IMG/VR virus record: IMGVR_UViG_3300045988_181040
Location: 1-41,069 of that record
DNA length: 41,069 nucleotides
Source: a virus
Direction: 5' to 3' (one strand)
This document shows positions 1-41,069 of the stretch, in pieces. Under the pieces are notes generated by a model. That model was not told the DNA's origin, ran no database searches, and worked only from the letters and a program-made list of their open reading frames with translations. Position numbers and translations under genes: made by a program. Every line of letters starts with the position of its first letter. Position 1 is the first letter of the stretch.

Positions 1-35
1 AGTGATAATGAAACCATAATAAACATACATTAGAA
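1..35. repeat. Left copy of a 35-bp terminal direct repeat, identical to 41035..41069
   Basis: agtgataatgaaaccataataaacatacattagaa was read at both window ends with no mismatch. Confidence 0.95.
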
Positions 36-237
36 TAAAATCAGAAGTTGTTTATCAATGGTTTGGAGGGATCACTATGGTAAAAGAAAGAAGAAAATCT
101 GTACCAGTGATGATATACGGGACAAAAGTATAACTTCAGTTACGAATATACGAAAACAGCAATTATGCTTCAGATAAATAACTCTGAGTACGTCGTGTTT
201 ATTGTTATAGACATGACAGAAAGGAGTTATTTTTTTT

Positions 238-1146
238 ATGCAATTGACGGATGTTTTGGAAGAATTTATATTCGACTGTAAATTGAGACGGATGAGTGAA
301 AGGACGATCAAAGGGTATAAAAATAATAATTTAAGATTTATCACATTTATCCGGAATGAATATCAAGTCAGTGAGTTAGAAAAGGTTCATTGCAAGCTAA
401 TCAAGGCTTATCTGGAACAGCTATCTTCTTTAGGAAGAATGCCAAGCTACATCAATGGAATTATAAAAAGTATGAGGGCGTTCTATCGGTATTGTATAGA
501 TGAAGAGTATCTATTCAATAATCCAATGGATAAAGTTAAATTCCAGAAGGAGCCTATAACACTTATTACTACTTTTAATAATAACGAAGTTAAGAAGATG
601 GTAGTGTATTACAGTGGGAGCAGATATTTGAGTATTAGAAATAAACTGATCATGATCACTCTTTTTGATACAGGGATAAGAAATTCTGAATTATGCAATT
701 TATTATTAACGAGTATTCGTGAGGAATATATTATGATTATGGGGAAAGGAAAAAAAGAACGGGTTGTTCCAGTTTCTCCGATATTAAACAAAACATTGAT
801 TAAATATAAGCGTGTAAGAGCAGAATACATAAAAGACAAATTTGCTTATCAAACAGAATATTTATTTCTATCACAAAATGGAAGAAAACTTACACCGGAG
901 GCAGTTGAAAAGATTGTAGGAGATTGTGCAAAAGCTTGTAAGGTCAGAAAACATATTCGAAGTAGTCCACATACATGTCGGCATTATTTTGCGCAGGCAC
1001 AGTTGAAGAATGGATGTGATCTATATACCCTGTCCCGATTACTGGGGCATAGTAATATCAATATTACTAAAATTTACCTGCAGTCTCTACAAGATGAAGA
1101 TGTACTTGAATTAGGGGTAAAAACAAGTCCATTGATGAATTTGTAA
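238..1146 (+). CDS. Tyrosine recombinase (phage integrase / Xer-like)
   Basis: 302 aa. Catalytic pattern: TGIRNSEL (Arg), HTCRHYFA (H-x-x-R), LGHSNINITKIYL (His...Tyr). RBS gaaaggag lies upstream. Confidence 0.9.
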   Translation: MQLTDVLEEFIFDCKLRRMSERTIKGYKNNNLRFITFIRNEYQVSELEKVHCKLIKAYLEQLSSLGRMPSYINGIIKSMRAFYRYCIDEEYLFNNPMDKVKFQKEPITLITTFNNNEVKKMVVYYSGSRYLSIRNKLIMITLFDTGIRNSELCNLLLTSIREEYIMIMGKGKKERVVPVSPILNKTLIKYKRVRAEYIKDKFAYQTEYLFLSQNGRKLTPEAVEKIVGDCAKACKVRKHIRSSPHTCRHYFAQAQLKNGCDLYTLSRLLGHSNINITKIYLQSLQDEDVLELGVKTSPLMNL

Positions 1147-5537: not shown

Positions 5538-6896
5538 ATGAAAAAGTGTAAAGGTATTATTTGTGCAGTAATACTATGTATGCTTCTGCCTGTTTCAGTG
5601 TATGCGCATCCAGGAAGAACAGACTCGGCAGGTGGACACCATGATTATAAAAATCAAAGTGGCTTAGGGAGTTATCATTATCACCACGGGATGCCAGCAC
5701 ATTTACATCCAGGAGGTGTATGTCCATATAGCGGAGGAACTCCAAGTTATACAGCGCCAACACCGCCTAAGCCAAGTGTTACTATAAATAATCCACCAGT
5801 TCAATTGAATGTTGGAGATAGCACAGGTCTAGATGTTACATTGGCGAACGTATCTCAGAATGCTTTTAATGTTACATCAAGTAATCCACATGTAGTTCGT
5901 GTGAATGCAGACAATACATTAACAGCTGTTGGCGAAGGTGATACAACAATTACAGTAAGCGCATCGGGTGCCGAAAATAAGGCATTTGTTGTAACAGTAA
6001 AAACAGTTCCAGTAGAATCGATTTCTATAAAAAGCTCAAATACTAAAGTGCAGCTTGATAAAACAATAAAATATGAGGCAGAAGCTTTACCTAATAATGC
6101 AACTGATAAAACAATTATGTGGAAATCGGACAATAAAGAAATTGCAACAGTAGCAGAGGATGGAACAGTAACAGGACACAAAGTGGGAAAAACAAAAATT
6201 ATATGTCAAGCAATAAATGGTGTCACGTCAGAAGTTGAAGTAGAAGTTTTTGAAATTCTTCCAGAAAAAATAGAAGTTGATGTTAATCATATAAAATTGG
6301 AATGTACAAAATTGTTTAATTTAAACGTAACTGTTTTACCAGAAGAAGCTAATGATAAAAGTTATACTTTATTTAGTAGTGATGAAAGTGTTGCCAAGAT
6401 AACAAACAATAAAATAGAAGCTATATCAGATGGGAAAACAACCATAATAATTAAAACAAAAAATGATGTTAAATATGAAATTCCAATTGAAACATTTCAT
6501 GTTCCAACAGAAGATATTAAGATAGATGATAGTTCTATGGAATATTTTTTGAATTTATCTTCTTTTAAAGTGATCGATAAAAAGACGGAATTACAATTGG
6601 ATACAGTTATTTCTCCGAGTGATGCGACTTTTGAAAATGCAGAATGGAAGAGTAGCAATGACAAAATTGTAACTTTTGATGATGGCGAAATGTTCATAGT
6701 TGGAACTGGAAAAGTAGTTCTTACAGCAGAAGCACATGATGGACAGACAGATAGCATAACAATATATGTTGTTAGTAAAGTGGTTATCATTATGATTACG
6801 GGTATCTTGGTAATCATAATAATTACAGTTTTGGTAAAGAAAAATTGGAATAAAATATTGAAATTAAAAGAACAGTATATGGTAAAGAAAAATTAG
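5538..6896 (+). CDS. Secreted, C-terminally anchored protein: YHYH domain plus about four Big_2 Ig-like repeats
   Basis: Signal peptide present. HPGRTDSAGGHHDYKN..GSYHYHHG is the YHYH motif. Big_2-like units repeat (e.g. NATDKTIMWKSDNKEIATVAEDGTVTGHKVGKTKI). A terminal TM segment is present. Confidence 0.75.
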   Translation: MKKCKGIICAVILCMLLPVSVYAHPGRTDSAGGHHDYKNQSGLGSYHYHHGMPAHLHPGGVCPYSGGTPSYTAPTPPKPSVTINNPPVQLNVGDSTGLDVTLANVSQNAFNVTSSNPHVVRVNADNTLTAVGEGDTTITVSASGAENKAFVVTVKTVPVESISIKSSNTKVQLDKTIKYEAEALPNNATDKTIMWKSDNKEIATVAEDGTVTGHKVGKTKIICQAINGVTSEVEVEVFEILPEKIEVDVNHIKLECTKLFNLNVTVLPEEANDKSYTLFSSDESVAKITNNKIEAISDGKTTIIIKTKNDVKYEIPIETFHVPTEDIKIDDSSMEYFLNLSSFKVIDKKTELQLDTVISPSDATFENAEWKSSNDKIVTFDDGEMFIVGTGKVVLTAEAHDGQTDSITIYVVSKVVIIMITGILVIIIITVLVKKNWNKILKLKEQYMVKKN

Positions 6897-8592: not shown

Positions 8593-9435
8593 CTATGCTT
8601 TATTTAAAATGTACTTGACTGCCTTTTCTGCCTTGCAAGATGCAGAAACAATGAATTTCACGTCAGATCTCAATGCAGATAACCAGTTTTGTATATAAGC
8701 TGTTGAATTTCTGAAACTTCCAGTTGTTTGAATACCGAGAATATTCATAAGGTTTGCACTTCCGATTTCTGCAACAAGTTCTTCCTTGCTATAATCTTCA
8801 CTACCAAAACGAGCAGTTGTTGAGGAACTAAGTCGGTCTAATCGGCTTTTATGTCCGGTGCTGTGTGTTAGTTCGTGAAATGCTGTGCTATAATACTCTG
8901 CTTCGTTCTTAAACTGTTCCATTAGCGGTAAATGCACCAGATCGAGAGAAGGTGAGTAATACGCTTCATTAGATGCCGTATTCTCTAATACGATATTCTC
9001 CCTTGTAAGATAATCACTGATTACCTTTTCAGCTTCATCTAGTGGTGACAGTTCTTTTGCCTCATAAGATAACGGCTCAATACCGTCTACCTGTGAAATA
9101 TGAAAGACATTATAATATCTTAACATTGCAATCTGTTTTATTTCTGTTGTTCCATCTTCTTTCTTTTCTTCAACAGGTAATATCTTCCAGAATACAAGTA
9201 TTTCTGATTTCTCTCCTTTACGGATGTGACCGCCCAATTCTGTCCACTGTTTAAAGGTGGCATATTCACCCGTATGTTTTAATAACATCTGATTTAATAA
9301 GGAATAAGGTTTTCTTGTGATTCTGTTGTATGCTCCGCTTGTTACACCGTGCCAAGGCTTTTTCCAAGGAATTACACCATTTTTTAACTGCTCAATAATT
9401 CTGTCTGTTACCATTTCATACACTGATTTACTCAT
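8593..9435 (-). CDS. ardC: ArdC-like anti-restriction protein (ssDNA-binding N-domain plus zincin metalloprotease)
   Basis: N-terminal VTDRIIEQLKNGVIPWKKPW and C-terminal FHELTHSTGH (HExxH) match the ArdC family signature. Confidence 0.85.
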   Translation of the reverse strand: MSKSVYEMVTDRIIEQLKNGVIPWKKPWHGVTSGAYNRITRKPYSLLNQMLLKHTGEYATFKQWTELGGHIRKGEKSEILVFWKILPVEEKKEDGTTEIKQIAMLRYYNVFHISQVDGIEPLSYEAKELSPLDEAEKVISDYLTRENIVLENTASNEAYYSPSLDLVHLPLMEQFKNEAEYYSTAFHELTHSTGHKSRLDRLSSSTTARFGSEDYSKEELVAEIGSANLMNILGIQTTGSFRNSTAYIQNWLSALRSDVKFIVSASCKAEKAVKYILNKA

Positions 9436-9577: not shown

Positions 9578-9787
9578 TTATTCAGTTTCTTCTATATATT
9601 CCAATATATCTCCTGGCTGACAATTTAACAATTTGCATATAGTATTCAACGTTTCTTTACTTGCTATTTCACCAGTTCTTATTTTTTGTAACTGTGATTC
9701 TCCAATCAGTTTTTCTTTTCTTATTTTATATGAAGTATATCCTTTTTCTTTTAAAGATTCCAATATATCAATTTTATATTTCAACAT
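9578..9787 (-). CDS. Small HTH (XRE/Cro-like) regulator
   Basis: 69 aa. YKIRKEKLIGESQLQKIRTGEIASKETLNTICKLLNCQPGDILEY is typical of short HTH_26-like regulators. Operator repeats flank the gene on both sides. Confidence 0.8.
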   Translation of the reverse strand: MLKYKIDILESLKEKGYTSYKIRKEKLIGESQLQKIRTGEIASKETLNTICKLLNCQPGDILEYIEETE

Positions 9788-9825
9788 GATGAACCCTCCC
9801 TTTTAAATAAAGTATATCATATGTA

Positions 9826-9958
9826 ATACACTCATAGCAAGTGTTTATAAAAAAGTATATCACAGAACATACACCTATTAAAAGTGTATAATATACACAA
9901 AAAACAGGTGCATACTTTGTGTATAATGTCAATTTACATACACCTGAAATAAGTGTAC
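9826..9958. promoter_or_regulatory. Operator sites 3-6 of the ATACAC-N9-GTGYAY array
   Basis: Sites at 9826-9846, 9869-9889, 9893-9913 and 9938-9958. An orphan GTGTAT half-site lies at 9919-9924. Confidence 0.6.
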
Positions 9959-11062: not shown

Positions 11063-11497
11063 ATGATGAAATGGAAAGCAAGAACAGAAACAACAAATAT
11101 TGGAATATTAGAGTTAGGAAACATTGTGTTTGATGAAGATTATATGGAAGTGTCTATTGATATTTGTTCTATGTCCGATGAATTGAAGAGAGAAGTTGAG
11201 AAAGCAATCGAAATCGCAAAGGTAAACCGCACCAAAGAAATTGAAAAGCTCAATCTGGAGAATGGGTACAATAGACCTTCTGCCTGGAGTGACAAACCTG
11301 TAAATATTGATTTTACATATTTGAGAGTTGTTATACAGGCAAATGAACCAATTAGAACATCTATTGAAATTGGCTTTACGGATGCGGAAAATGAAATGCT
11401 AGAACAGTTTGACTGTAGCGTTGTTGTCGATTTGTCAGGCTATGCGGAGGAACTGAAAAAGGCAATCATAAAGGTTCTGGTTGACAAGTTCTTTTAG
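11063..11497 (+). CDS. Hypothetical protein
   Basis: 144-aa ORF in operon context. Confidence 0.6.
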   Translation: MMKWKARTETTNIGILELGNIVFDEDYMEVSIDICSMSDELKREVEKAIEIAKVNRTKEIEKLNLENGYNRPSAWSDKPVNIDFTYLRVVIQANEPIRTSIEIGFTDAENEMLEQFDCSVVVDLSGYAEELKKAIIKVLVDKFF

Positions 11498-11516
11498 AGA
11501 GAGGAGGCGTGTGTAT

Positions 11517-11999
11517 ATGACGATGGAAATGCGTGTTGATAAAATCCTAATTCCGAATCGGTACACACGTACACCGCCAAAAGAGTCAAAGGTGGAAAAT
11601 CATGTAGTGTATTACATAAGGCACAGACAATTCAAAAAACAGATCGTTGTCACACAAAATGGATGGTTAGTTGATGGACTCTGTGATTATATTGTGGCGG
11701 TTATGTGTGGGATGGAAACGGTAGTATGTGAAGTCAATCAACAAAGGATATCACATGAAAAGCAATGTAAAAGGATTGCAACAGCGTCTAAACGTGGAAA
11801 GCGGAAAATCTTATATCAGAGGCAAGATGGAAAATGTGCAATCTGTGGCAGAAGATTACAAATTGATGATTATACAAGTATGGAAAATTATCTGACAATT
11901 GATCATATTTTTCCACTGTCCAGAGGTGGAGTCAATACGATTGATAATTTGCAGGGACTATGTAGAAACTGCAACAGCATTAAAAGTGATATTATTTAG
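11517..11999 (+). CDS. ParB-N (Srx-like) domain fused to an HNH endonuclease
   Basis: VDKILIPNRY...VVTQNGWLVDGLCDYIVA resembles the ParB N-terminal domain. CAICGRRL..LTIDHIFPLSRGG..DNLQGLCRNCNSIKSD is the HNH motif. ATG 11517 follows gagaggagg. Confidence 0.8.
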   Translation: MTMEMRVDKILIPNRYTRTPPKESKVENHVVYYIRHRQFKKQIVVTQNGWLVDGLCDYIVAVMCGMETVVCEVNQQRISHEKQCKRIATASKRGKRKILYQRQDGKCAICGRRLQIDDYTSMENYLTIDHIFPLSRGGVNTIDNLQGLCRNCNSIKSDII

Positions 12000-13310: not shown

Positions 13311-13583
13311 ATGGAAACTATTGTAAGACCATCAGCGGATTTAAGAAATCATTACAACGAGATATCTCAAGAGTGTCATGAAAAGAGAACACCGATCATC
13401 ATTACAAAAAATGGAAAAGGTGATACGGTTGTTATGGGGTTACAAGACTATAATCAGATGCAGTCAGAATTGGAATTACTGCGTACCTTGGCAGAAGCGG
13501 AGGAAGATGCTGTCAATGGGCGAGTTGCACCAATCCAACAGACTTTTAATGACATACGCAATAGCCTGTTAGAGAGGAAATAG
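13311..13583 (+). CDS. Phd/YefM-family antitoxin
   Basis: SADLRNHYNEISQECHEKRTPIIITKNGKGDTVVMGLQDY is the typical Phd/YefM N-domain. It ends 2 nt before the toxin gene. Confidence 0.85.
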   Translation: METIVRPSADLRNHYNEISQECHEKRTPIIITKNGKGDTVVMGLQDYNQMQSELELLRTLAEAEEDAVNGRVAPIQQTFNDIRNSLLERK

Positions 13584-13585
13584 AA

Positions 13586-13897
13586 ATGGAATATCAAATT
13601 GTACGAACGGATAAAGCAGATGAGCAGTTAAGAGAAATCATTTTTTACATTGCAGATGATTCCGGCAGTGTGGAAATTGCACTTGAGTATTTGGATAAAA
13701 TCGAAAAGTCGATTATAAAATTATCCACATTTCCTTACTCCGGAAGTATCCCAAGATATTCCATCCTTAGAAAACAAGGATATAGGGTGCTGATCGTAGA
13801 ACGTCATCTGGTATTTTACAAAGTGAACGAAGAAAATAGAACAGTGATTATCTATGCTATTATTGACGGAAGGAGAGAGTACAGGAATTTAATATAA
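13586..13897 (+). CDS. RelE/ParE-family toxin (ParE-like)
   Basis: 103 aa. A..QLREI..YI...S...A..YLDKIEKSI..L..FPYSG pattern, with C-terminal ..V.IYAIIDGRR. Confidence 0.85.
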   Translation: MEYQIVRTDKADEQLREIIFYIADDSGSVEIALEYLDKIEKSIIKLSTFPYSGSIPRYSILRKQGYRVLIVERHLVFYKVNEENRTVIIYAIIDGRREYRNLI

Positions 13898-13931
13898 TAT
13901 GATATAATAGAGTAAGAAAGGATGTGATCAT

Positions 13932-14153
13932 ATGAGCAATCGTGAAGAAGCGAAACAGATTATTGACAAATTACCAGAATACAAAATTGAGAAAATTCTT
14001 TTATTTTTAAAAGGAGTAGAATTTGATGATGAAATGGAAGACGATGTTTTTTGCGAGAATATGGCGCAGAGGTATCTGAATGATGACAGCCCTGATAAAC
14101 ATGATACTATTACTATAGAGGAGTTTGCAAAGCAAGAAGGTATTGTATTATGA
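13932..14153 (+). CDS. Putative antitoxin of the second TA pair
   Basis: A 73-aa acidic protein. Its end overlaps the downstream RelE-like start by 4 nt (ATGA coupling). Confidence 0.65.
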   Translation: MSNREEAKQIIDKLPEYKIEKILLFLKGVEFDDEMEDDVFCENMAQRYLNDDSPDKHDTITIEEFAKQEGIVL

Positions 14154-14404
14154 GATATCAGATTGTTTTGGAAAAGCCGGCTCAAAAATTTCTGAAGCGT
14201 CTTAATCGGACAGACAAAGAGAGAATCCTTAGAGCAATTTATAAACTTCCTGAAGGTGAAAATATAAAACGTCTGAAAGGTCATCAAGATTTATTGAGGC
14301 TACGGGTAGGTGATTATAGAGTTATCTATACTGTAAATAATGGAAAATTAGTAGTGTGCGTGGTAGATATCGGAAATCGTGGAGATGTCTATAAGAGATA
14401 TTAA
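14150..14404 (+). CDS. RelE/StbE-family mRNA interferase toxin
   Basis: 84 aa. KPAQKFLKRL....RI...I..L......K.LKG....LRLRVGDYRVIY.V.......V..IG.RGDVYK is the canonical RelE/ParE pattern. Confidence 0.85.
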   Translation: MRYQIVLEKPAQKFLKRLNRTDKERILRAIYKLPEGENIKRLKGHQDLLRLRVGDYRVIYTVNNGKLVVCVVDIGNRGDVYKRY

Positions 14405-14475: not shown

Positions 14476-15156
14476 TTAATGGCTAGATAAATTATTTTCA
14501 TCTGGTAATAAAAAATTGTTTGTAAGAAAACTATCATGGATTATACCGCTCGATACTAAAATAGGTTCTATTTTTTTGATGATACCATGTATTTTGTAGT
14601 CAATAAAATATCGTGGTATTTTGCCAACTATTTTTTCAATAAATTTTGCTGATGTTGTACCTAATTTAGAAAGTTGTATATAACCATTCACATTTGTGTT
14701 GTTTATTGTGGACTGCTTAAAAGGAATATCTAATATTGCTTCTGGATCTTCTTTTAAATTTAAAGGGGCAATCAAAAAATAAGGATTTTCATCGGATGGT
14801 TTATTAGTCCTTCCTATTATTACACAAGGCTGGTTAATAGATGCTGCCTTAACAGTTCTTGTTACTTTAGATCGTGAACTTGTTCCTAGAGGATAGCATT
14901 GACAATTTACAATCGTTCCTATTTTTAATAAGTTTAATGGAATAGACGGATATGCGTCAGGAATATGAACAACGATGTTACTTATGCTACAGTTAAATTC
15001 AGTACAAATTTTTTCTATAATTGTTAAAGTAATAGGTTCATTTTTCCCGATTTTGGCAAGTGTTGCATTAGAAATGTCTACTCTCTGTGCAAATTCCATT
15101 TTTGATAAATGAATATCATTTAAAAATTGCCATAGTGGTTCATATGATAGTGCCAT
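14476..15156 (-). CDS. XRE-type HTH protein with a C-terminal domain resembling the MazF/PemK (SH3-like barrel) fold
   Basis: N-terminal LSKMEFAQRVDISNATLAKIGKNEPITLTIIEKIC is the HTH. C-terminal GTIVNCQCYPLG...NQPCVIIGR...FLIAPLN...GYIQLSKLGT...KIVGKIP parallels MazF blocks GDI.W.DF.P..G....RP.VV.S...V.P.T...D.QV..I...G. Confidence 0.6.
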   Translation of the reverse strand: MALSYEPLWQFLNDIHLSKMEFAQRVDISNATLAKIGKNEPITLTIIEKICTEFNCSISNIVVHIPDAYPSIPLNLLKIGTIVNCQCYPLGTSSRSKVTRTVKAASINQPCVIIGRTNKPSDENPYFLIAPLNLKEDPEAILDIPFKQSTINNTNVNGYIQLSKLGTTSAKFIEKIVGKIPRYFIDYKIHGIIKKIEPILVSSGIIHDSFLTNNFLLPDENNLSSH

Positions 15157-15238
15157 AACATACCTCCCTAATATGTGTCTAAGTTTAGCATCTATTTCTG
15201 TAAAAGTAAATATGTTTCTGCAAAAACGAAAAAATATA

Positions 15239-15267
15239 TTGACAAAAGAAGAACTAAGTCGTACAAT
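15239..15267 (+). promoter_or_regulatory. Consensus promoter P1, TTGACA-17-TACAAT
   Basis: -35 at 15239-15244 and -10 at 15262-15267. ACAGAAAT-type repeats flank it (15194-15201 reverse; 15280-15287 and 15299-15306 forward). Confidence 0.65.
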
Positions 15268-15352
15268 TGATTTATAAAAACAGAAATGAAATGAAAAAAC
15301 AGAAATAAGGAGCGTAACATATAATATAGAATATTTTTATGGAACACGAGAA

Positions 15353-15366
15353 AGAACATATGTTCT
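15353..15366. promoter_or_regulatory. LexA (Cheo/SOS) box 1
   Basis: AGAACATATGTTCT is a perfect GAAC-N4-GTTC palindrome. Compare the Bacillus/Clostridium consensus CGAACRNRYGTTYC. Confidence 0.7.
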
Positions 15367-15374
15367 GAAAAATG

Positions 15375-15403
15375 TTGACAAGAACAAATGTTCGTAGTAA
15401 TAT
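15375..15403 (+). promoter_or_regulatory. Consensus promoter P2, TTGACA-17-TAATAT, with LexA box 2 (15381-15394) filling the spacer
   Basis: -35 at 15375-15380 and -10 at 15398-15403. The box AGAACAAATGTTCG abuts the -35. Confidence 0.7.
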
Positions 15404-15828
15404 GACTATTGTAACATAAAAAGAGAAATCCAAATTCCATCAACGGTGCGCCAACACCTCCGGAATAAAGATTCCTCTTTCAAAACAAAGCATAGCGAAA
15501 CGCTACACATATTTATATAATACAGATTTATTTTAAGTAGTCAAGCGTTTCTGCAAAATTTCCAACTTAACAATTAAATGAGTGGAAGAATAATGAAATA
15601 TATGAGCGTTGTAATTCTACATATAGCGCATATGTTTAATTTTTGTACTCAAAAATGTACGTTGAAAATTGAATACAGTGCAGTTCCGGCAGCGGAGAAT
15701 ATATGATTAGGCAGCAGAGCCTATATATTTTTGCATACAAATGAACAGCAAATTTACTTAAATAATATCCTAGAAAACAGCTGGGTATTGTTTTGGTACA
15801 GAAAAATTACAGGGAGGAGCGGATATGA

Positions 15829-16089
15829 ATGGAATTGAACAGAACAGATTATATCATTTTGAAACTACTAAAGAAAAAGAAATGTACATCCTTTTTTGAA
15901 GGAATGACATTACAGGAAATTATGGATGTAACACAAACGACTCGTCCAACTACATATCGGAAGATGATGAATATGAAAGAAATGGGGTATGTAGAAAAGG
16001 GATGTAAGTCAATTCAGGCAGATACATTTTATCTACTTGATAAAGGAATCAATTTTATAGAAAGAAAAGGAGAGGTAGAGCATGATTAA
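15829..16089 (+). CDS. tubR: Winged-helix DNA-binding protein in the TubR position (centromere-binding adaptor candidate)
   Basis: 86 aa. ILKLLKKKK....GMTLQEIMDVTQTTRPTTYRKMMNMKEMGYVEK is a wHTH motif. Its end overlaps the tubulin-like gene by 8 nt. Confidence 0.65.
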   Translation: MELNRTDYIILKLLKKKKCTSFFEGMTLQEIMDVTQTTRPTTYRKMMNMKEMGYVEKGCKSIQADTFYLLDKGINFIERKGEVEHD

Positions 16090-17155
16090 GAAAGAAGTTG
16101 CAGTGATAGGACTTGGTTTAGCAGGAGAAACAGTTGGGTATGGGTTCCAACAAAGAAATTATCACACGTTGCTGATCAACGGTAGTGAGCAGGACAATCA
16201 GACGATATCTTCTGCGAAGAATGTACTTGTCTTGCGTGGCTATGACGGATTAGCCGGAGATAGAAATCTTGCTTTAGAAGCATTGAAAAATAATATAGAT
16301 ATTGTGAAAAAAATTAAAGAAATTGAACAAAAAATTGTACTTCCGATTGCTTCTGGCGGTGGAACTACAGGTAGTGGAAGTATTACTCATGTTAGTGACA
16401 TTATATGTGCTAATCCGGAAAAGATTGTATGTCCGATTGTACTAATGCCGAGAAAAGATGAATCCATTCAAAAAAGAATTAACGCATATAATACGGTTAA
16501 AGAACTGATGGAAATTGAAGAATTAGGTGCAATGATTCTGGTCAATAATGATGCTCACAAGGATCTGCAGAAGATCAATGAGACGCTTATCAATATGCTT
16601 GATAGATTCTTTACAGACAGTTCTGTATCAAAAGGCTCTAACTTTGATGATTCGGAGAAAATGAGGATGTTAAGAGAACATGGAGTATTTGTGTTGGCAA
16701 TGCTATCTGGAAAAGATAAATCAGTATCAACACAAGATATGATAAATGTTTTGACTGCAAAGAACATCTTTTTACCACTGATGAACGATGGTGTAGTGGG
16801 AAATATCGGTATTATCAATCAAAAGGATAATCACTTAGACGAGCATGAAATCATACAAGCAGTAGGAACACCAGAAAATATTTTTACTGGAAATAACGGA
16901 ACAGCAAATATCGTGTGCCTGTCTGGGTTGTCATTTCCAGTGGATTATATCTCTGAATTAGGAAAATCAGCAGTAGAAGAGCAGCGAGAAAGAATCGGCA
17001 AGCGCAGAACTTTGCAGTTAGAAGAAATCAATATAGGATTGGAAGATTCCAGGAAAACAGCGTCATCACAGAAAACAAGTAAGCGTAGAAAATCAAGTTT
17101 AGATTTGCTGCGAGAATTGGACGATGATGACGATGGTACAGAGATGAACAGTTAA
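16082..17155 (+). CDS. tubZ: Tubulin/FtsZ-superfamily GTPase (TubZ/PhuZ-like)
   Basis: T1 loop VAVIGLGLAGETVG. NGSEQDN matches NT(D/S)xQ(A/D)L. T4 tubulin signature ASGGGTTGSGS. Acidic C-terminal tail LLRELDDDDDGTEMNS. Confidence 0.8.
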   Translation: MIKKEVAVIGLGLAGETVGYGFQQRNYHTLLINGSEQDNQTISSAKNVLVLRGYDGLAGDRNLALEALKNNIDIVKKIKEIEQKIVLPIASGGGTTGSGSITHVSDIICANPEKIVCPIVLMPRKDESIQKRINAYNTVKELMEIEELGAMILVNNDAHKDLQKINETLINMLDRFFTDSSVSKGSNFDDSEKMRMLREHGVFVLAMLSGKDKSVSTQDMINVLTAKNIFLPLMNDGVVGNIGIINQKDNHLDEHEIIQAVGTPENIFTGNNGTANIVCLSGLSFPVDYISELGKSAVEEQRERIGKRRTLQLEEINIGLEDSRKTASSQKTSKRRKSSLDLLRELDDDDDGTEMNS

Positions 17156-17202
17156 GATAATGTGTGAACAGCGAAGAAACAGGTAAATAACATTGAGGAA
17201 AC

Positions 17203-18096
17203 ATGGAGAATAATACTATGAGCAAATCCATAGAAGAAAAGATTATTGATGTGCTATTTGAAAAGAATCGAATCAATTTTGTAATGAAAGATAATTTGGC
17301 GAAGTTCCTGAAAGAGAAGTATGAACCAGAAATAAAAAAGAGCAAGATCAGAAAATCAGAATTGATAGAAGTCACCCACAAATATCTTACACCTGCAACA
17401 TTATCAGATTTTGTAACATTGGACAGATTCGGACTGCTGCAATGTGATATTGAAGAAATACTAGATGTTGGAAAGGTTACAGTAAAACAGTTAATCAATA
17501 CAGGAAAAATAAGAGTACTTACAACTATTACAGATTCACGAGGCAGTTTTAGTATTAAGTATCATGTGTGTAGTATTCCGGATATTATCAAAGTTTCAGA
17601 GTGTGAAAATTTAGAGCCAAAGAGAATAGTTCATAGGGAGGTTCATAATCTTCCGCAAACAGATGAGAACATAGCATGGGCATTGTATATCATCAATAAA
17701 TCAGCAAAAGTGTCCAGAGATACAAAAAATCGAAGCTATAGAAGTGGTGATTATAGAATCTGCAATGCTGCAAAGACAAGAATGTTGAGTCACTATTGCT
17801 TAAAGGATGCAGTGATTAAAAAATTGATTGCAGAAAACCGTATGGAATTTGTAGGTATCAATAAGCAAGAGCTACCTGATGGGAACGTGCAATATTTAGA
17901 ACTGTATAAAATAGGAAGATTTTCATTCCATTTACTGTGCGAAGATACGTCTCGATATAAAGCGGATTTTATTCTGGGAGATATCCATGATCTAATCAGT
18001 GCAGATAAAAGTCGAGATATCAAAATGACATACAGAGATGCGGTACATTTATTGGAAACGTATTCAGGCGTACATCTTACCAGTGATAAAGATTGA
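17203..18096 (+). CDS. Hypothetical protein immediately downstream of tubZ (TubY-position gene)
   Basis: 297-aa ORF, same operon. No family recognised. Confidence 0.6.
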   Translation: MENNTMSKSIEEKIIDVLFEKNRINFVMKDNLAKFLKEKYEPEIKKSKIRKSELIEVTHKYLTPATLSDFVTLDRFGLLQCDIEEILDVGKVTVKQLINTGKIRVLTTITDSRGSFSIKYHVCSIPDIIKVSECENLEPKRIVHREVHNLPQTDENIAWALYIINKSAKVSRDTKNRSYRSGDYRICNAAKTRMLSHYCLKDAVIKKLIAENRMEFVGINKQELPDGNVQYLELYKIGRFSFHLLCEDTSRYKADFILGDIHDLISADKSRDIKMTYRDAVHLLETYSGVHLTSDKD

Positions 18097-24054: not shown

Positions 24055-27000
24055 TTGAATATTTTTAAATGTCTGACAGAAAAAGAAAATCAGTTGAGAA
24101 AAAAATGGAAGAATTGTCATCGTCCAGAGTTGAAGTCTGCTGCCCAGAAAGCATTTATAGAGGAAGTAGAGCGGTATACAGATATCAGAAGTATTTCACG
24201 TGAGAAGATATATGAAGATAAAGAAGCAAAAGAGGAATTACAGATTGCATTATTTGAAAATGATATTGTACGACTGGAAAAGGAAGATTTGTCAGATGTC
24301 CCATTTATAGATAAAGTTGTATTTTTGGAATGTAAAGGGAAAACAGCGAAACCTATTTTGAAACAGATTATCGATCGAGGAATTGATATTGCAGGGAAGC
24401 ATTTTATTTTTTACAGTAGTTCTACGGGGCAATTGAAAGATCAAGAAATCACATTGCTGGATGCAAAATTTTACGAAGATAATAAGAATCGGTTACTGTG
24501 CGGATTGACAGAAGGAATTATCAATGCTCATGGTGGGATCAATATGGGAAAGTTTTTAGCATATAAGTCTTTGAATTTGTCTATGAGCGTACAGACAGAG
24601 TATGCGGTCGATATTGACGAAGTGTTGGTTGTAAAAGATTTTGAGACTCTTGTGACAGGCAAAGTGAATTACTTGGATGCGGATACCTTTAATATAGAAG
24701 AAACAGAGATGGAAGTTCCTGTTCCTCACATGGATGGAGCAGGGATGTTTATGCCGGGGACACTTCCTTGCAGCTGTCAAATCCGTGGTGGATGGATTAA
24801 AGGAGCAATCTTTCCTTTTGATTTCTGTAAGTTTATTGAAAAGCACTCGTGTGAATCATTTGTTTTAGATGCATGGAATCATCCAGTACCCATAGAAACA
24901 GTCAAACGAATGAAAATTATTTTGACACAGAGTCAATTAAAAATGTGGCAGTATTATGAGTCTATGGATGATTACCGAGACAAATTTAAAGCATCTGGCG
25001 CAGCAATTACAATTAACAATTTTGCAGAACCAGTGGGAAAAGAGTATATCCGTTTGAGTTATCAACCTATTCAGACACTTCCACGGGAAACGTTTACGGA
25101 GGAGAGGATGGAGAAACTTTGCCAAAAATCTGTTGACTATATCAATCAGGCAAAAATAGATCCGGATGTTGCACTCAAGATTATGGGTATTGACATGGAA
25201 AGGGAAGATATAAAGTTAGATGGTTTGCAGATGGCAATCAAATTGTATCCGCAATTGTTATCCGATGGGTATGTAAAAAAGAAAGTGCAGGAGTACATCA
25301 AAGCAGAGCGAAAAAGGATGCAAGCTGGCAAGATTTATGTAAAAGGTATCAACGGCTATATTTGTCCGGATTTGTATGCCTTCTGCCAGTGGCTGTTTTG
25401 TGGCGAAGAGAATCCAAAAGGATTGATACCAGAAAATCATGTCTATAGCAAGCATTATAACGAGCAAGAGATATCAGAAGTGTGCTGTATCCGATATCCT
25501 CACTTGTCTGATTGTGAGCATGGTATTAGGTCATTGATTAAATCAGAGGAATGCAAGGAATGGTTCTCTGGTGATGATATAGTCGTAAGTACGCATGATC
25601 TGCTGACAAAAACACTACAGGCGGATGTGGATGGAGATCATATGTTTGTTATTTCTGATTCTGCATTTTTAGATTGTCTGGGCGAACAGAAAGCACCTTT
25701 GTATTACCAGATGGGTTCTGCGCCTAAATCTCAGATTACAAGGACAGAAGAGTATCAATGTTTGGAGCGCAGCTTTGACAATGAAAATATAGGGAATGTG
25801 TCGAATGCAATTACAAAGATTTTCAATGAAGAAAATCCTGATATCAAATTGATTAGGATTTTATGTGCATATAACAATTATGTGATTGATTTCCCCAAGA
25901 CACAATTGTCTTTGGATTTAAAAGGATATGCGCCGATTTATAATAAGTATAAAGAGCAGGAAATGCTCCCACCATATTTTTTCCAGTATGCCAAAGATAG
26001 AAGAAGCGATCTGTGCTGTGAGTTTCATTCCTATCACAATGTAGATCGGATAGCAGTATATATAAAAAAGAAGACAAGAAATGGAATTACCAAGATTTCA
26101 TGTCTGGACGATATAAACGGTTTTAATCCTGAGACTCTAAAAGATAGAAGTATCACGGTCAAGAGGAATTCTAAAGAATATAAGAAGATGAGAACACTTC
26201 TGCCGAAACTGAAAATGAGAGTATCCTATTATCTAAAGGGGTTAATATCAGAATATAACCAGACATATAATGACAAGATACTTGCGAAAGAATTGATCTA
26301 TATTTTTTGTCTAAAGCAATTTGATAAAATGATTCCGGATCGAAAAGTGGCAGCATCCTATTTGGTGGATATGGAATATTATCAGCCAGAATTTAGAGAA
26401 GATTGTAACAAGGATATCCTTTGGGAGTGCTATGGGGATATTTTAGTTCAAAATGTGGAACTGAACGTGAAACAAAATATAGAACTGCCTTTAAAACGAA
26501 AGGCATACCAGACAAGCCAAGAAAAGACAGAAGAGATTGCACAAAGAATTGAGCAGATCAAGAAGAAGCAGGAAGATTTAATGGAAGTACCGATTGCGAA
26601 AAGTGTTTATGATTCCATATTTAGTATGGAATGTAAAAAGAACTGTCCGAAAGATCGAGAGTTGTTGTATATTTTATATGTTTTGTATCAGAGATACGTC
26701 GCGAAAAGCGAGAAAGAAGTGGATTGTCTTTTGCTGGCAAGTGGCAAAAATAGCAAAGGAATCAAAAGGATAACCATTGATGAATGGATTGGCAGCAAGA
26801 TTACAGATAAAGGATTAAAGAGGTTGGAAAAGGCTGGATACATCAAACAAGAGAAGCTGAGAAAATATATTAAAATTTCTTTTTATTTACCAGATCCAGA
26901 TAAGACTAAACTCTTCTATGCAAAGGAACAAAATCCATTGATTGATCTGTATCAATATAATGGTGAGCGCAGTGTCAAAATCTGTGAAGTGTGTGGAAGG

Positions 27001-27090
27001 AGATTTTTTGCAGAAAGAAATCGGAAAACGTGTAGTGATAAATGTAGTGAGTTGTTGCGTAAAAGAAATGGCAAAAGAGAACAGGTGTAA
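24055..27090 (+). CDS. YonO-like / eukaryote-type-RdRP-like single-subunit two-barrel (DPBB) polymerase with a C-terminal Zn ribbon
   Basis: CCIRYPHLSDCEHGIRSLI...DDIVVST...LQADVDGDHMFVISD parallels RdRP NPCLHPGD..DLDGDxYFVxWD and beta-prime NADFDGDQMAV. Upstream blocks GKHFIFYSSSTGQLKD, HMDGAGMF and CQIRGGWIKGAIFPFD are also present. The C-terminus has CEVCGRRF..CSDKC. TTG 24055 has no RBS; the true start may be ATT/ATA at 24004-24010, after GGGAG (23997-24001). Confidence 0.75.
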   Translation: MNIFKCLTEKENQLRKKWKNCHRPELKSAAQKAFIEEVERYTDIRSISREKIYEDKEAKEELQIALFENDIVRLEKEDLSDVPFIDKVVFLECKGKTAKPILKQIIDRGIDIAGKHFIFYSSSTGQLKDQEITLLDAKFYEDNKNRLLCGLTEGIINAHGGINMGKFLAYKSLNLSMSVQTEYAVDIDEVLVVKDFETLVTGKVNYLDADTFNIEETEMEVPVPHMDGAGMFMPGTLPCSCQIRGGWIKGAIFPFDFCKFIEKHSCESFVLDAWNHPVPIETVKRMKIILTQSQLKMWQYYESMDDYRDKFKASGAAITINNFAEPVGKEYIRLSYQPIQTLPRETFTEERMEKLCQKSVDYINQAKIDPDVALKIMGIDMEREDIKLDGLQMAIKLYPQLLSDGYVKKKVQEYIKAERKRMQAGKIYVKGINGYICPDLYAFCQWLFCGEENPKGLIPENHVYSKHYNEQEISEVCCIRYPHLSDCEHGIRSLIKSEECKEWFSGDDIVVSTHDLLTKTLQADVDGDHMFVISDSAFLDCLGEQKAPLYYQMGSAPKSQITRTEEYQCLERSFDNENIGNVSNAITKIFNEENPDIKLIRILCAYNNYVIDFPKTQLSLDLKGYAPIYNKYKEQEMLPPYFFQYAKDRRSDLCCEFHSYHNVDRIAVYIKKKTRNGITKISCLDDINGFNPETLKDRSITVKRNSKEYKKMRTLLPKLKMRVSYYLKGLISEYNQTYNDKILAKELIYIFCLKQFDKMIPDRKVAASYLVDMEYYQPEFREDCNKDILWECYGDILVQNVELNVKQNIELPLKRKAYQTSQEKTEEIAQRIEQIKKKQEDLMEVPIAKSVYDSIFSMECKKNCPKDRELLYILYVLYQRYVAKSEKEVDCLLLASGKNSKGIKRITIDEWIGSKITDKGLKRLEKAGYIKQEKLRKYIKISFYLPDPDKTKLFYAKEQNPLIDLYQYNGERSVKICEVCGRRFFAERNRKTCSDKCSELLRKRNGKREQV

Positions 27091-35000: not shown

Positions 35001-35829
35001 AGTTAAGAGAACTTGATTTACTGAAACTGCAACAGGTTATTGATGAGTTAGACAGAACTGCAAAACGACTGGAAAACAATTCTGACCTTACAGAATCAAA
35101 AGGTGAACAGGTATCTGAAAAAGATTTACAGGCACAGCTTGACAATGCAAATGCACAGATTCAGGCAAATTACGATAAGCGGAATGAACTATTAAAGGAT
35201 CAGGCAAAATATGATGTCGGTTCTGACAAATATAATGAATATGCAGAAGAGATAGAAAAGCTCGATGACGCTATCTTTGATGCAATGGAGAACATTGAAG
35301 ACCTCAAAAATAAAATCTGGGAAGTAAGATGGCAACCGTTCTTTGATGGACAGGAAGCATTAGGTGATCTGATTGACCAGACAGATGATTTAAGAGGACT
35401 TTTAAATAGTGATGCTTTTCTTGGGAAAAATGGTGGATTAACACTTGATGGTATTGCAAATATTGCTCTGATTAGTCAGGGTATGAATGCTGCGAAACAA
35501 CAGATTTCTAATTACAGAAAAGCTCTTGAGAAATTACAACAGGACTTAGACAACGGCAATATTTCCACACAAGAATTTGAAGAGTCTTCAAAGAAGTTTA
35601 TGGATGAGATTGCTTCAAGTACCTCAAAAATCGAATCTTATAAAGACGAGATCGTTTCTCTTTACACTAATATGTTAGAGAAGGAAAACGAAGTAGTCCA
35701 AACTAGCATTAAAAATCAAAAGGATTTGTTAAGCTCTAAAAAAGAGAATGATGACTACGACAGAAATGTAAGAAAGAAAACTAAAAATATCAATTCTATC
35801 CAGGCACAGATTGCAGCTTTGGAAGGGGT
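29081..35829 (+). CDS. Tail tape measure protein, exon 1 (TP901-family core); joins 37818..39231 after intron removal
   Basis: RBS taaggaggg. The TP901-type TMP core runs ILDLQMATGDSY...GADTWLRSGK...SKVLTATLNGF...IGTALTKTASMAHNAGLSLE...IGNALKSMLSRM. TM-like segments and long coiled coils are present. The apparent stop at 35834 lies inside the intron. Confidence 0.85.
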
Positions 35830-40802: not shown

Positions 40803-41034
40803 GTATGTGAGTTATGAAAAATATTATTCACGTATAATGATAAACATGACATTTTGAGGCGAAAATAGCTTCATATATATCATAACTGAGAGTTTACTAA
40901 AAAGGGCAAAGAATTCGGGAATAGAGCCGAAAACAAGCGGATTTGTGATGTGGTAAATTCTTTTTTGCTCAACGGATGTTCAGGACGTGTACCACAACTG
41001 GGATGAGTAAGCACACCTTACATAGATTTTAAAT

Positions 41035-41069
41035 AGTGATAATGAAACCATAATAAACATACATTAGAA
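41035..41069. repeat. Right copy of the 35-bp terminal direct repeat
   Basis: Identical to 1..35. Confidence 0.95.

What the first reader, a model, noticed from the sequence alone, without database searches (positions are those of the whole stretch)
15829..18096. TubR-TubZ tubulin-based (type III) segregation module with an unassigned third gene
ORF 16082..17155 shows tubulin/FtsZ features:
- G-box VAVIGLGLAGETVG.
- The tubulin signature in a variant form, GGGTTGSG, with one inserted Thr.
- An acidic C-terminal tail (DDDDDGTEMNS), like the tails that TubZ/PhuZ use for filament or adaptor contacts.

It overlaps an upstream 86-aa winged-helix gene, which is the TubR position. A 297-aa unknown gene follows, in the position of TubY in Clostridium botulinum phage c-st.

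This argues that the element is kept as an extrachromosomal, low-copy replicon. The tyrosine recombinase may then serve multimer resolution rather than, or as well as, integration. No clear tubC iteron array is visible upstream. I found only GGCAGCrGAG twice (15697-15706 and 15722-15731) and scattered hairpins, so the centromere is unidentified.
Basis: partly seen in the sequence, partly recalled or inferred. Interest (0 to 1): 0.65.

Follow-up and report, generated by a model that had tools for sequence, protein, structure and literature searches.

The report
SOS-controlled TubR–TubZ on integrated element
The window carries a genuine tubulin-type DNA-moving gene pair (TubR and TubZ), but it sits on a 41-kb phage-like island integrated in the chromosome and lies behind a DNA-damage-controlled promoter, so it most likely acts only when the island excises and is not the maintenance system of a permanent plasmid.

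Summary
The three ORFs and the motifs are real. ORF 16082-17155 is a TubZ. Pfam Tubulin scores above its cut-off. The AlphaFold model (pLDDT 82.7) matches phage c-st TubZ best (Foldseek E 1e-21, TM 0.85). ORF 15829-16089 is a TubR. It is 31% identical to c-st TubR, and its family profile hits 6tey at E 2e-12. The pair, with its 8-nt overlap, is conserved in every related locus where the upstream sequence is present.

(1) The 297-aa gene is not TubY. It has no similarity to c-st TubY and no MerR domain. Its C-terminus is YkyB-like, and most lineages lack it.

(2) The element is not a plasmid. Identical integrase and right-end proteins lie in megabase-scale contigs between housekeeping genes. 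The element is flanked there by an exact 155-bp repeat at the 3' end of yebC.

New finding: the gap upstream of tubR holds the only two GAAC-N4-GTTC LexA boxes in the window. One sits inside a TTGACA-17-TAATAT promoter that faces tubR. Ten of 15 lineages share this (P about 2e-16).

Best reading: an SOS-induced type III-like system that acts on the excised element. It is a new variant of a known kind.

The parts
1..95 (.). Left part of the attachment repeat. Nt 1-35 are identical to nt 41035-41069. Joined with 40975-41069 they rebuild one copy of the 155-bp att sequence.
   Evidence: In chromosomal locus L013 the same 155 bp occurs twice (9704-9858 and 14828-14982), flanking the element. It includes the last codons and the stop of yebC.
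238..1146 (+). Tyrosine integrase of the element.
   Evidence: Pfam Phage_integrase E=2.9e-29. The identical protein lies next to host alr-mazF-yebC in L009-L013.
14476..15156 (-). Divergent Cro/C1-type HTH gene (226 aa). Probably the element's own repressor.
   Evidence: Pfam HTH_26 E=8.5e-12. The gene at this position differs in type between related loci (225-380 aa), as immunity repressors do. AAAAACAGAAAT repeats next to it are shared only with L004, which has the same repressor type.
15239..15267 (+). Promoter-like site TTGACA-17-TACAAT. Two AAAAACAGAAAT repeats follow at 15276-15287 and 15295-15306.
   Evidence: 11 of 12 consensus matches; for the repeats. Function is inferred.
15354..15393 (.). 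Two LexA-operator-like palindromes: GAACATATGTTC (15354-15365) and GAACAAATGTTC (15382-15393).
   Evidence: They are the only two GAAC-N4-GTTC sites in the 41 kb, against 0.42 expected. The motif equals the Bacillus/Clostridium LexA operator (PMC4234289). Boxes upstream of tubR occur in 10 of 15 lineages.
15375..15403 (+). SOS-type promoter TTGACA-17-TAATAT facing tubR, with the second LexA box in its spacer.
   Evidence: The same architecture is found in 8 of the 10 box-bearing lineages, with up to 12 of 12 consensus matches.
15404..15828 (+). Untranslated leader between the SOS promoter and tubR. This is the candidate region for the centromere (tubC), which is not pinned down.
   Evidence: The position is as in all type III systems (PMC6009700). 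It is rich in short direct and inverted repeats. K-mer analysis gave no clear iteron. There is no Rfam match.
15688..15731 (+). Tandem 22-nt repeat GGCAGCrGAG-N2-TATAT.
   Evidence: family D5, 73% identity. Only the second copy is conserved in other lineages.
15708..15748 (+). Conserved block: a 5-bp GC hairpin (TAGGC-AGCAGA-GCCTA), then TATATATTTTT, then ATGAACAG.
   Evidence: Present about 100 nt upstream of tubR in 14 lineages. The hairpin has -6.5 kcal/mol and was flagged as terminator-like. Covariation is weak, so its role is unresolved.
15829..16089 (+). tubR: an 86-aa winged-helix centromere-binding-type protein.
   Evidence: 31% identity to c-st TubR, E=3e-14. The family profile hits 6tey at E=2.2e-12 over the full length, and the next hit is E=0.03. 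AF2 pLDDT 90.6. Foldseek top hits are 6tey and 4asn, both TubR.
16082..17155 (+). tubZ: a 357-aa tubulin/FtsZ-fold GTPase with a disordered tail and a conserved terminal peptide.
17203..18096 (+). The 297-aa gene with a YkyB-like C-terminal domain. It is a variable early gene, not TubY, and is not a conserved part of the module.
   Evidence: Pfam YkyB 39.2 bits against a cut-off of 28.4. No similarity to TubY. Variable presence and position.
40975..41069 (.). Right part of the attachment repeat.

Best explanation
Genes 15829-16089 and 16082-17155 are a c-st-type TubR-TubZ pair. TubR is a small winged-helix DNA adaptor. TubZ is a tubulin-fold GTPase that forms filaments.

The pair belongs to a 41-kb phage-derived element that normally sits integrated at the 3' end of yebC. 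While the element is integrated, host LexA (probably together with the element's own divergent repressor) keeps the rightward early promoter off.

Proposed sequence after DNA damage:
1. LexA is cleaved.
2. The promoter at 15375-15403 fires.
3. tubR and tubZ are the first genes transcribed, followed by the helicase and the YonO-type RNA polymerase genes.
4. The element excises through its integrase.
5. TubR coats repeats in the 425-nt leader upstream of its own gene.
6. The conserved C-terminal peptide of TubZ docks onto that complex.
7. Treadmilling TubZ filaments move the excised, replicating circles. Either they separate them so that both daughter cells keep a copy, or they carry them to the place where they replicate.

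What is shown: the homology, the fold, the gene order, the integration and the promoter/operator architecture. What is inferred: LexA binding, read-through to tubR, the TubR binding sites, polymerisation, and the purpose of the movement.
For: TubZ:
- Pfam Tubulin above its cut-off.
- Best PDB sequence hit is 3v3t, c-st TubZ, aligned over residues 26-340.
- AF2 model pLDDT 82.7, pTM 0.82.
- Foldseek top hits 3v3t/4xcq, E about 1e-21, TM 0.84-0.85. These rank ahead of CetZ, the Bacillus TubZs, FtsZ and PhuZ.
- T1 GxGxxG, T4 GGG(T/S)TGSG and T7 N-F-D-D-S-E are conserved across the family.
- A disordered tail from about residue 312, then a conserved terminal KRRxxSLDLLRELD.

TubR.

Pairing: tubR lies immediately upstream of tubZ in every locus where that sequence is present.

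Synteny with c-st: tubR, tubZ, small genes, helicase, YonO.

Integration.

SOS control:
- The only two LexA boxes of the window lie in the gap.
- Across 15 lineage representatives, 12 of 12 strict boxes in 217 kb fall in the 700 nt upstream of tubR (binomial 1.7e-16).
- In 8 of the 10 box-bearing lineages the box sits in the spacer of a near-consensus promoter that faces tubR.
- The operator motif follows PMC4234289.

Precedents for cytomotive systems on integrated elements that act only after SOS-triggered excision:
- srpMRC of SXT/R391 (PMC4489591).
- AlpAC of prophage CGP3 (PMC4446434).
Against: - Five of the 15 lineages have no LexA box, so SOS control is not universal.
- A conserved hairpin plus T-run lies between the SOS promoter and tubR. 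If it terminates efficiently, tubRZ would depend on a separate, weaker promoter near the conserved TGAACAG and might not be SOS-controlled at all.
- No centromere repeats could be defined.
- No replication initiator was recognised in the element.
- No experiment links this family to DNA movement.
- The window has a 35-nt terminal overlap that closes it into a circle with one att copy. That would fit a real excised or plasmid form, although a 155-bp repeat also produces such circles as an assembly artefact.
Confidence: 0.6

Rival explanations
1. The element lives as a stable low-copy plasmid prophage, like c-st. TubRZ is its constitutive partition system, and the tyrosine recombinase mainly resolves multimers.
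For: - The closest characterised relatives, c-st TubRZ, do exactly this.
- Two toxin-antitoxin pairs lie just upstream at 13311-14404, as in plasmid stability regions.
- The window closes into a circle with one att copy.
- The conserved hairpin plus T-run could insulate tubRZ from the SOS promoter and let it run from its own promoter.
Against: - The identical integrase (listed in 522 index blocks) and the identical right-end gene (1507 index blocks) sit between housekeeping genes in every contig shown, which reach 4.6 Mb. Only the 24 longest-contig blocks of each were read.
- An exact 155-bp att duplication lies at the yebC 3' end.
- A 5-kb deletion derivative occupies the same site between the same att copies (L013).
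- Homologous TubRZ loci lie in finished or near-finished chromosomes.
- No TubY is present.
Confidence: 0.1
2. The induction and the machinery are as in the best explanation, but the purpose differs. TubZ does not partition DNA to daughter cells. Instead it positions replicating element DNA inside a doomed cell, at the membrane or at mid-cell, to make replication or packaging efficient. AlpAC of CGP3 and PhuZ of jumbo phages do this.
For: - The element is phage-derived: YonO-type RNA polymerase, a tape-measure-like 2251-aa protein, an antirepressor domain, and tubRZ at the head of the early operon.
- CGP3 is likewise an integrated, degenerate prophage. Its actin-like filament and adaptor are early-induced and raise the copy number of the circular DNA (PMC4446434).
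Against: - No terminase, portal, capsid or lysis genes were recognised in the 41 kb. It is therefore unclear whether induction ends in lysis or in particles at all.
- By fold and sequence the protein is closer to the partition-type TubZs than to PhuZ, which ranks 28th in Foldseek.
Confidence: 0.22
3. The pair has been repurposed. TubR is mainly a Cro-like early transcription regulator. TubZ targets the host, for example by interfering with FtsZ to block division during the SOS response, and does not move element DNA.
For: - tubR occupies the position of a cro-type gene, first after the divergent repressor.
- PHROGs labels its family as a transcriptional regulator.
- LexA-controlled division inhibitors and prophage-encoded FtsZ inhibitors are well known (from general knowledge, not tested here).
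Against: - The tight tubR-tubZ coupling (an 8-nt overlap in the loci inspected) is conserved.
- The TubZ terminal docking-type peptide is conserved too.
- The specific full-length homology of both partners to the c-st pair argues for the adaptor-motor relationship.
- Known TubR proteins are already both repressors and adaptors (PMC6009700).
Confidence: 0.05

Closest known systems
TubR-TubZ-tubC (with TubY) type III partition system of Clostridium botulinum phage c-st
   Same: - Both proteins are the best sequence and structure matches: TubZ 22% identity, Foldseek TM 0.85; TubR 31% identity over its full length.
- The gene order is the same.
- There is a long repeat-rich gap upstream of tubR: 672 bp here, about 500 bp in c-st.
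- TubR is short and, like the monomeric c-st protein, lacks the extra dimerisation helices (PMC6009700).
- The downstream synteny to the helicase and YonO genes is the same.
   Different: - c-st is a 186-kb plasmid prophage, whereas this element is 41 kb and integrated at yebC.
- There is no TubY.
- tubR and tubZ overlap by 8 nt here, whereas in c-st 18 nt separate them.
- LexA-box promoters lie upstream. I did not examine the c-st gap for them.
- The T4 motif is GGGTTGSG rather than AGGTGSG.
TubZRC of Bacillus plasmids pBtoxis, pXO1 (RepX) and pBM400
   Same: The tubulin-fold motor and the wHTH adaptor have the same arrangement. They are recovered by Foldseek: 4ei7 and 2xka for TubZ, 4asn and 3m8e for TubR.
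   Different: They are much more distant (14-17% identity). The Bacillus TubR proteins are dimers with extra helices. They sit on large virulence plasmids, and TubY is encoded upstream (PMC7762940).
srpMRC of SXT/R391 integrative conjugative elements
   Same: It is an active partition module on an element that is normally integrated. It is expressed only after SOS-triggered activation, and it stabilises the transient excised form (PMC4489591).
   Different: It is an actin-type (ParM-like, type II) system, not a tubulin-type one. It is on a conjugative element of Gammaproteobacteria. Control is indirect, through SetR and SetCD, and not through LexA boxes on the promoter.
AlpA-AlpC of Corynebacterium glutamicum prophage CGP3
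   Same: - It is an integrated, degenerate prophage.
- It has a filament protein and a co-transcribed adaptor.
- The adaptor binds repeats just upstream of its own operon.
- Both genes are early-induced by mitomycin C and are needed for the normal copy number of the excised circle (PMC4446434).
   Different: The filament protein is actin-like. The authors argue for positioning at the membrane and against partition.
PhuZ of jumbo phages
   Same: It is a phage tubulin with an acidic C-terminus, used during lytic growth.
   Different: - It has no TubR-type adaptor.
- The structural match is weaker (rank 28).
- PhuZ belongs to strictly lytic phages of more than 200 kb.

Membership tests
Type III (TubZRC) partition system | The motor has a tubulin/FtsZ fold. 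| tested here: met
   AF2 pLDDT 82.7. Foldseek top hits are c-st TubZ at E 1e-21, TM 0.84-0.85. Pfam Tubulin 41.6 bits against a cut-off of 33.
Type III (TubZRC) partition system | GTP-binding loops T1 and T4, and a T7 loop with acidic residues for polymerisation-dependent hydrolysis. | tested here: met
   By sequence only. IGxGLxG, GGG(T/S)TGSG and N187-F-D189-D-S-E192 are invariant or nearly so in 51 family members. The last lies between the long central helix (162-178) and the next helix (190-198) of the model. The T4 motif is a variant of GGTGSG.
Type III (TubZRC) partition system | A small wHTH centromere-binding protein, TubR, is encoded immediately upstream of tubZ in the same orientation. 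| tested here: met
   Conserved in every related locus where the upstream sequence is present.
Type III (TubZRC) partition system | A flexible C-terminal tail on TubZ mediates the contact with TubR-DNA. | tested here: inconclusive
   The tail is disordered over residues 312-338, followed by a conserved terminal KRRxxSLDLLRELD helix. The contact itself was not modelled because no multimer tool was available.
Type III (TubZRC) partition system | The centromere tubC is a set of repeats upstream of tubR that TubR binds. | tested here: inconclusive
   There is a 672-bp gap with many short repeats, but no statistically distinct iteron set. c-st tubC also has only 4-5-nt iterons that were found by footprinting.
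Type III (TubZRC) partition system | A third protein, TubY, with a MerR-type HTH, a coiled coil and a Lys-rich tail, is encoded nearby. | tested here: not met
   The third gene against c-st TubY gives E=1.1. It has no MerR Pfam match, whereas TubY scores 1.5e-11. tblastn of TubY against the window and all loci gives a best E of 3.1.
Type III (TubZRC) partition system | It resides on a low-copy extrachromosomal replicon whose inheritance it secures. | tested here: not met
   The element is integrated at the yebC 3' end between 155-bp att repeats in large chromosomal contigs. Homologues lie in 3.9- and 5.4-Mb chromosomes.
Type III (TubZRC) partition system | GTP-dependent assembly into treadmilling filaments that carry TubR-tubC. 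| not testable with these tools
   This needs biochemistry or imaging.
LexA (SOS) regulon of Firmicutes | The operator GAAC-N4-GTT(C/T) overlaps the promoter. | tested here: met
   LexA binding itself cannot be tested here.
PhuZ (jumbo-phage tubulin) | It works without an adaptor, has a conserved acidic C-terminal tail that contacts neighbouring subunits, and occurs in lytic jumbo phages. | tested here: not met
   An adaptor gene is present. The acidic tail occurs in 2 of 51 members. PhuZ ranks 28th in Foldseek. The element is 41 kb and integrated.
YkyB-like proteins (PF14177), for the third gene | A match to the family model above its curated cut-off. | tested here: met
   39.2 bits against 28.4, residues 196-290. 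Relatives include proteins named YkyB family in Bacillus and Clostridium. The function of the family is unknown.

The most novel reading that the evidence does not exclude
This would be the first tubulin-based (type III) DNA-segregation system whose normal substrate is a chromosomal island rather than a plasmid. The system is silenced directly by host LexA. It is switched on only for the short time the island spends excised after DNA damage. It works without TubY. The island also lacks recognisable head and packaging genes, so the system may be what keeps a satellite-like element from being lost while it waits for re-integration or a helper. The family is common in gut Lachnospiraceae.
Probability: 0.45. 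Interest if true: 0.7.

Novelty: new variant of a known kind. Interest (0 to 1): 0.55.

Why it matters
Type III partition has been studied only on a few Bacillus plasmids and on one Clostridium plasmid-prophage, and it is treated as a plasmid-maintenance device that needs TubY. Here a large, unnamed TubRZ family sits on integrated elements, lacks TubY, and lies behind LexA-controlled promoters. A profile search found 903 cluster representatives in total, and the loci fetched from species-representative genomes were Lachnospiraceae or other Clostridia.

If the proposed function holds, three things follow:
- The idea that integrative elements need active partition while excised, shown so far for an actin-type system on SXT/R391, would extend to tubulin-type motors and to phage-like islands of gut anaerobes.
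- There would be a natural two-protein minimal system for asking what TubY is really needed for.
- Finding a partition gene would no longer be enough to classify an element as a plasmid or phage-plasmid.

Tried and rejected
- blastn (distant mode) and tblastn of the cassette and of TubZ against the phage and plasmid collections found nothing. No annotated close relative was available, so c-st was fetched by accession instead.
- NCBIfam gave no meaningful hit for any of the three proteins. PHROGs recognised only TubR, as a 'transcriptional regulator' family.
- Rfam (E-value mode) on 15100-15900 gave only chance-level hits.
- K-mer counting in the gaps of five lineages showed no shared or clearly over-represented iteron in this AT-rich DNA. 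I therefore do not name a centromere.
- RNAalifold on the conserved hairpin gave a 5-pair stem with only one pair changed on both sides and a positive covariation term. The hairpin is conserved mostly as sequence, so I do not claim a structured RNA or a proven terminator.
- PADLOC gave no defence-system match for TubZ, the third gene or its neighbours. TubR matched only the generic wHTH portions of CARF proteins. A defence role was rejected.
- PDB sequence search with the third gene found nothing significant.
- The IME8 paper looked like a precedent for tubZ on an integrative element, but tubZ there is only a PCR marker for plasmid p1593.
- I considered that the large contigs might be megaplasmids. 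I rejected this because of the housekeeping flanks (alr, yebC, clpP, ftsK, fhs, folD) and the 3.9-5.4-Mb contigs.
Full report
**1. The observation**

- An 86-aa gene at 15829-16089.
- A 357-aa gene at 16082-17155, which overlaps the first by 8 nt.
- A 297-aa gene at 17203-18096.

The quoted peptide motifs are present. Three details need correction.
- HMMER and BLASTP align the GGGTTGSG motif to c-st AGGTGSG without a gap. It is therefore better described as a substitution than as an inserted Thr.
- The poly-Asp tail is a peculiarity of this variant (2 of 51 aligned relatives) and not a family feature.

**2. TubZ**

- Pfam Tubulin scores 41.6 bits (cut-off 33). The c-st-derived TubZ_C_3 model scores just below its cut-off (25.1 against 27).
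- The best solved-structure sequence match is c-st TubZ 3v3t (E=3.9e-9), aligned over residues 26-340.
- Direct BLASTP against the c-st gene gives 22% identity over 317 residues, E=3e-12.
- An AlphaFold2 model built on 51 relatives has pLDDT 82.7 and pTM 0.82.
- Its best Foldseek matches in the PDB are the two c-st TubZ entries (E about 1e-21, TM 0.84-0.85, rmsd 3.0 A). CetZ, B. cereus and B. thuringiensis TubZ, FtsZ and, further down, PhuZ follow.
- The nucleotide-binding loops are conserved across the family: T1 is IGxGLxG and T4 is GGG(T/S)TGSG.
- An N-F-D-D-S-E motif is also conserved. It sits between the long central helix and the next helix, which is where FtsZ and tubulin carry the T7 NxDxxD/E catalytic loop.
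- The last 45 residues or so are predicted to be disordered. They end in a conserved KRRxxSLDLLRELD peptide, which has the layout expected of a docking tail.

**3. TubR**

- The 86-aa protein is 31% identical to c-st TubR over 74 residues (E=3e-14).
- A profile of 39 relatives hits the solved c-st TubR (6tey) over its full length at E=2.2e-12. The next PDB hit is at E=0.03.
- The model (pLDDT 90.6) is a minimal winged helix.
- Its two best structural matches are c-st TubR and B. megaterium pBM400 TubR.
- Wherever the upstream sequence is available in related loci, a tubR homologue lies directly upstream of tubZ.

**4. The third gene is not TubY**

- The literature defines TubY by an N-terminal MerR-type HTH, a tetrameric coiled coil and a Lys-rich amphipathic tail (PMC7762940). 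c-st TubY (CST188) indeed scores MerR_1 at 1.5e-11.
- The window's 297-aa protein shows no similarity to it (E=1.1). It has no MerR match, and its C-terminal 95 residues match the YkyB-like family of unknown function above the cut-off.
- Its relatives recur in TubZ-bearing elements but at varying distance: adjacent here, one gene away in L019-L021 and six genes away in L022. Most lineages lack it.
- The first gene after tubZ differs from lineage to lineage, in a mosaic typical of phage early regions.
- No TubY-like sequence exists in the window or in any fetched locus.

**5. The element is integrated**

- The window's first 35 nt equal its last 35 nt.
- The window's integrase and its last gene (39755-40729) each occur as identical proteins in hundreds of assembly blocks.
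- To the left of the integrase lie alanine racemase, a MazF-type toxin gene and yebC.
- To the right of the last gene lie a Cys/Met-metabolism PLP enzyme, clpP, ftsK, fhs and folD. These contigs reach 4.6 Mb.
- In these chromosomes the element is bracketed by an exact 155-bp direct repeat that includes the last codons of yebC.
- The window is therefore the whole 41,034-bp element with one att copy, cut inside the repeat. This could be a true excised circle, or the cycle that a 155-bp repeat creates in an assembly graph. The data cannot separate the two.
- One chromosome (L013) carries a 5-kb deletion derivative between the same att copies.
- Homologous TubRZ loci lie in the 3.9-Mb Kineothrix chromosome and in a 5.4-Mb Sporofaciens contig.
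- This contradicts the inference of a permanent plasmid and of a resolvase-only recombinase.

**6. What kind of element**

It is phage-derived and related to the SPbeta/c-st group. It carries:
- A YonO-type RNA polymerase (phrog_8308, E=2e-147).
- A 2251-aa tape-measure-like protein.
- An antirepressor domain.
- Several homing endonucleases.
- ArdC.
- Toxin-antitoxin pairs.

The order tubR, tubZ, small genes, helicase, YonO mirrors c-st. No terminase, portal or major capsid gene was recognised, and little unassigned coding space remains. The element therefore looks like a defective or satellite-type derivative. This rests on negative profile searches and is not proven.

**7. The upstream gap**

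The 672-bp gap has two parts.

*Left part.* It changes with the type of divergent regulator gene. For example, AAAAACAGAAAT repeats are shared by the window and L004, which share an HTH_26 regulator. That is the behaviour expected of an immunity region.

*Right part.* It contains the only two GAAC-N4-GTTC palindromes of the whole window (0.42 expected by chance). They are 28 nt apart, and the second lies in the spacer of TTGACA-17-TAATAT, which points at tubR.
- GAAC-N4-GTT(C/T) is the LexA operator of Bacillus and Clostridium (PMC4234289).
- Among 15 lineage representatives whose gaps barely align, all 12 strict boxes found in 217 kb lie within the 700 nt upstream of tubR (binomial 1.7e-16). 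Ten lineages have at least one box.
- In eight of those ten the box sits in the spacer of a near-consensus promoter that faces tubR, often with a second box about 28 nt upstream.
- Apart from a 42-codon ORF (15578-15706), which is not seen in the other lineage groups, no ORF of 40 or more codons on the + strand lies between this promoter and tubR.

**8. An unexplained conserved block**

About 100 nt upstream of tubR, all 14 lineages examined share the following:
- A short GC hairpin (AGGCT-GAAA-AGCCT and variants).
- ATATATTTTT directly after it.
- (A/G)TGAAC(A/T)G, 8-9 nt further on.

The stems are only 5-6 bp (-6.5 to -8.4 kcal/mol), and covariation is weak. The block may be a leaky terminator or attenuator, a protein site, or part of a proximal tubR promoter. 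This is the main uncertainty about SOS control of tubRZ.

**9. The centromere**

It could not be identified. That does not count against the model. In c-st, the roughly 500-bp gap was likewise described as too full of repeats to read. tubC there turned out to be a split region of about 350 bp made of 4-5-nt iterons, and it was found by footprinting (PMC6009700). The candidate region here is 15404-15828.

**10. Mechanism and comparison**

The homology makes a TubR-adaptor and TubZ-filament machine the default reading. The integrated state and the LexA-box promoter place its activity after DNA damage, on the excised element. Two documented systems work this way with actin-type filaments:
- srpMRC of SXT/R391 ICEs. 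It is expressed only after SOS-triggered activation and reduces loss of the excised form (PMC4489591).
- AlpAC of the integrated, degenerate prophage CGP3. It is early-induced, its adaptor binds repeats upstream of its own operon, and it is needed for the normal copy number of the circle (PMC4446434).

I found no report of a tubulin-type system in this setting. Papers that mention both TubZ and LexA do not describe one, and the one apparent precedent, IME8, was a false lead. The library searched is incomplete, so the claim of novelty is provisional.

**11. Verdict**

- The core of the finding, a TubR-TubZ module, is correct and well supported.
- The TubY assignment and the plasmid inference are wrong.
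- What remains is a new variant of a known kind. It is a c-st-type TubRZ pair without TubY, on an integrated island, most often behind LexA-box promoters. It belongs to a large, uncharacterised family: a profile search finds 903 cluster representatives, 93 of them at E<=1e-30. The family occurs in Lachnospiraceae and related Clostridia.
- Interest is moderate, at 0.55.

Noticed in passing
window 24055-27090 (+): A 1011-aa protein matches the eukaryote-type RdRP Pfam family (E=2.2e-16) and phrog_8308 (E=2e-147). It is a YonO-type single-subunit RNA polymerase like those of SPbeta and c-st. It has an HNH-like C-terminal extension (residues about 965-1010).
   Followed up: partly
window 1-41069 as a whole: The 41-kb integrated element has a 2251-aa tape-measure-like protein (29081-35836) and phage early genes, but no recognisable terminase, portal, major capsid or lysis genes. 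It may be a satellite-like or defective derivative of an SPbeta/c-st-type phage, yet identical copies of its genes occur in hundreds of assemblies.
   Followed up: partly
L013 9704-14982 (same chromosomal site as the window): A 5.1-kb mini-version lies between the same two 155-bp att copies. It keeps only the integrase, a 98-aa gene, an HTH gene, one Big_2 gene, HU and the 324-aa endonuclease-like gene. The roughly 36 kb in between, including tubRZ, is missing. The cause may be recombination between the element's two Big_2 paralogues (5538-6896 and 37864-39231).
   Followed up: partly
window 13311-14404 (+): Two back-to-back toxin-antitoxin-like pairs lie just upstream of the repressor/tubRZ region. 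The first is PhdYeFM/ParE at 13311-13897, annotated through the identical genes in L007. The second is a small pair at 13932-14404, whose 84-aa member looks RelE/ParE-like by eye.
   Followed up: partly
window 15276-15306, and L004 about 9245-9285: AAAAACAGAAAT is repeated 19 nt apart, just downstream of a TTGACA-17-TACAAT promoter-like site. The same repeats occur in L004, which shares the HTH_26 divergent regulator, but not in loci with other regulator types. They are probably the operators of that repressor.
   Followed up: partly
window 15578-15706 (+): A 42-codon ORF lies inside the leader and ends 2 nt before the conserved hairpin. It is present in the window group but not in lineages where the SOS promoter lies closer to the hairpin. 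It is unclear whether it is translated.
   Followed up: no
window 14476-15156 (-): The divergent HTH_26 regulator has a C-terminal domain of about 150 residues with a faint PemK/MazF-like match (E=0.12). Related loci carry unrelated proteins of 290-380 aa at this position.
   Followed up: no
window 8593-9435 (-), 36212-37726 (+), 39755-40729 (+), 11481-11999 (+): An ArdC-type antirestriction/metallopeptidase gene and at least three HNH or homing-endonuclease-type genes are scattered through the element. HU (39361-39753) sits next to the last of them at the right end.
   Followed up: no
L001 (Logan SRR26418083 contig, 39,024 bp) against L002 (Kineothrix CP132957.1): The Kineothrix relative of the element is integrated in the finished 3.9-Mb chromosome. 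In a separate read-set assembly it also appears as a stand-alone 39-kb contig, similar in size to the whole element. This could reflect an excised or amplified form, or just assembly breaks at repeats.
   Followed up: no
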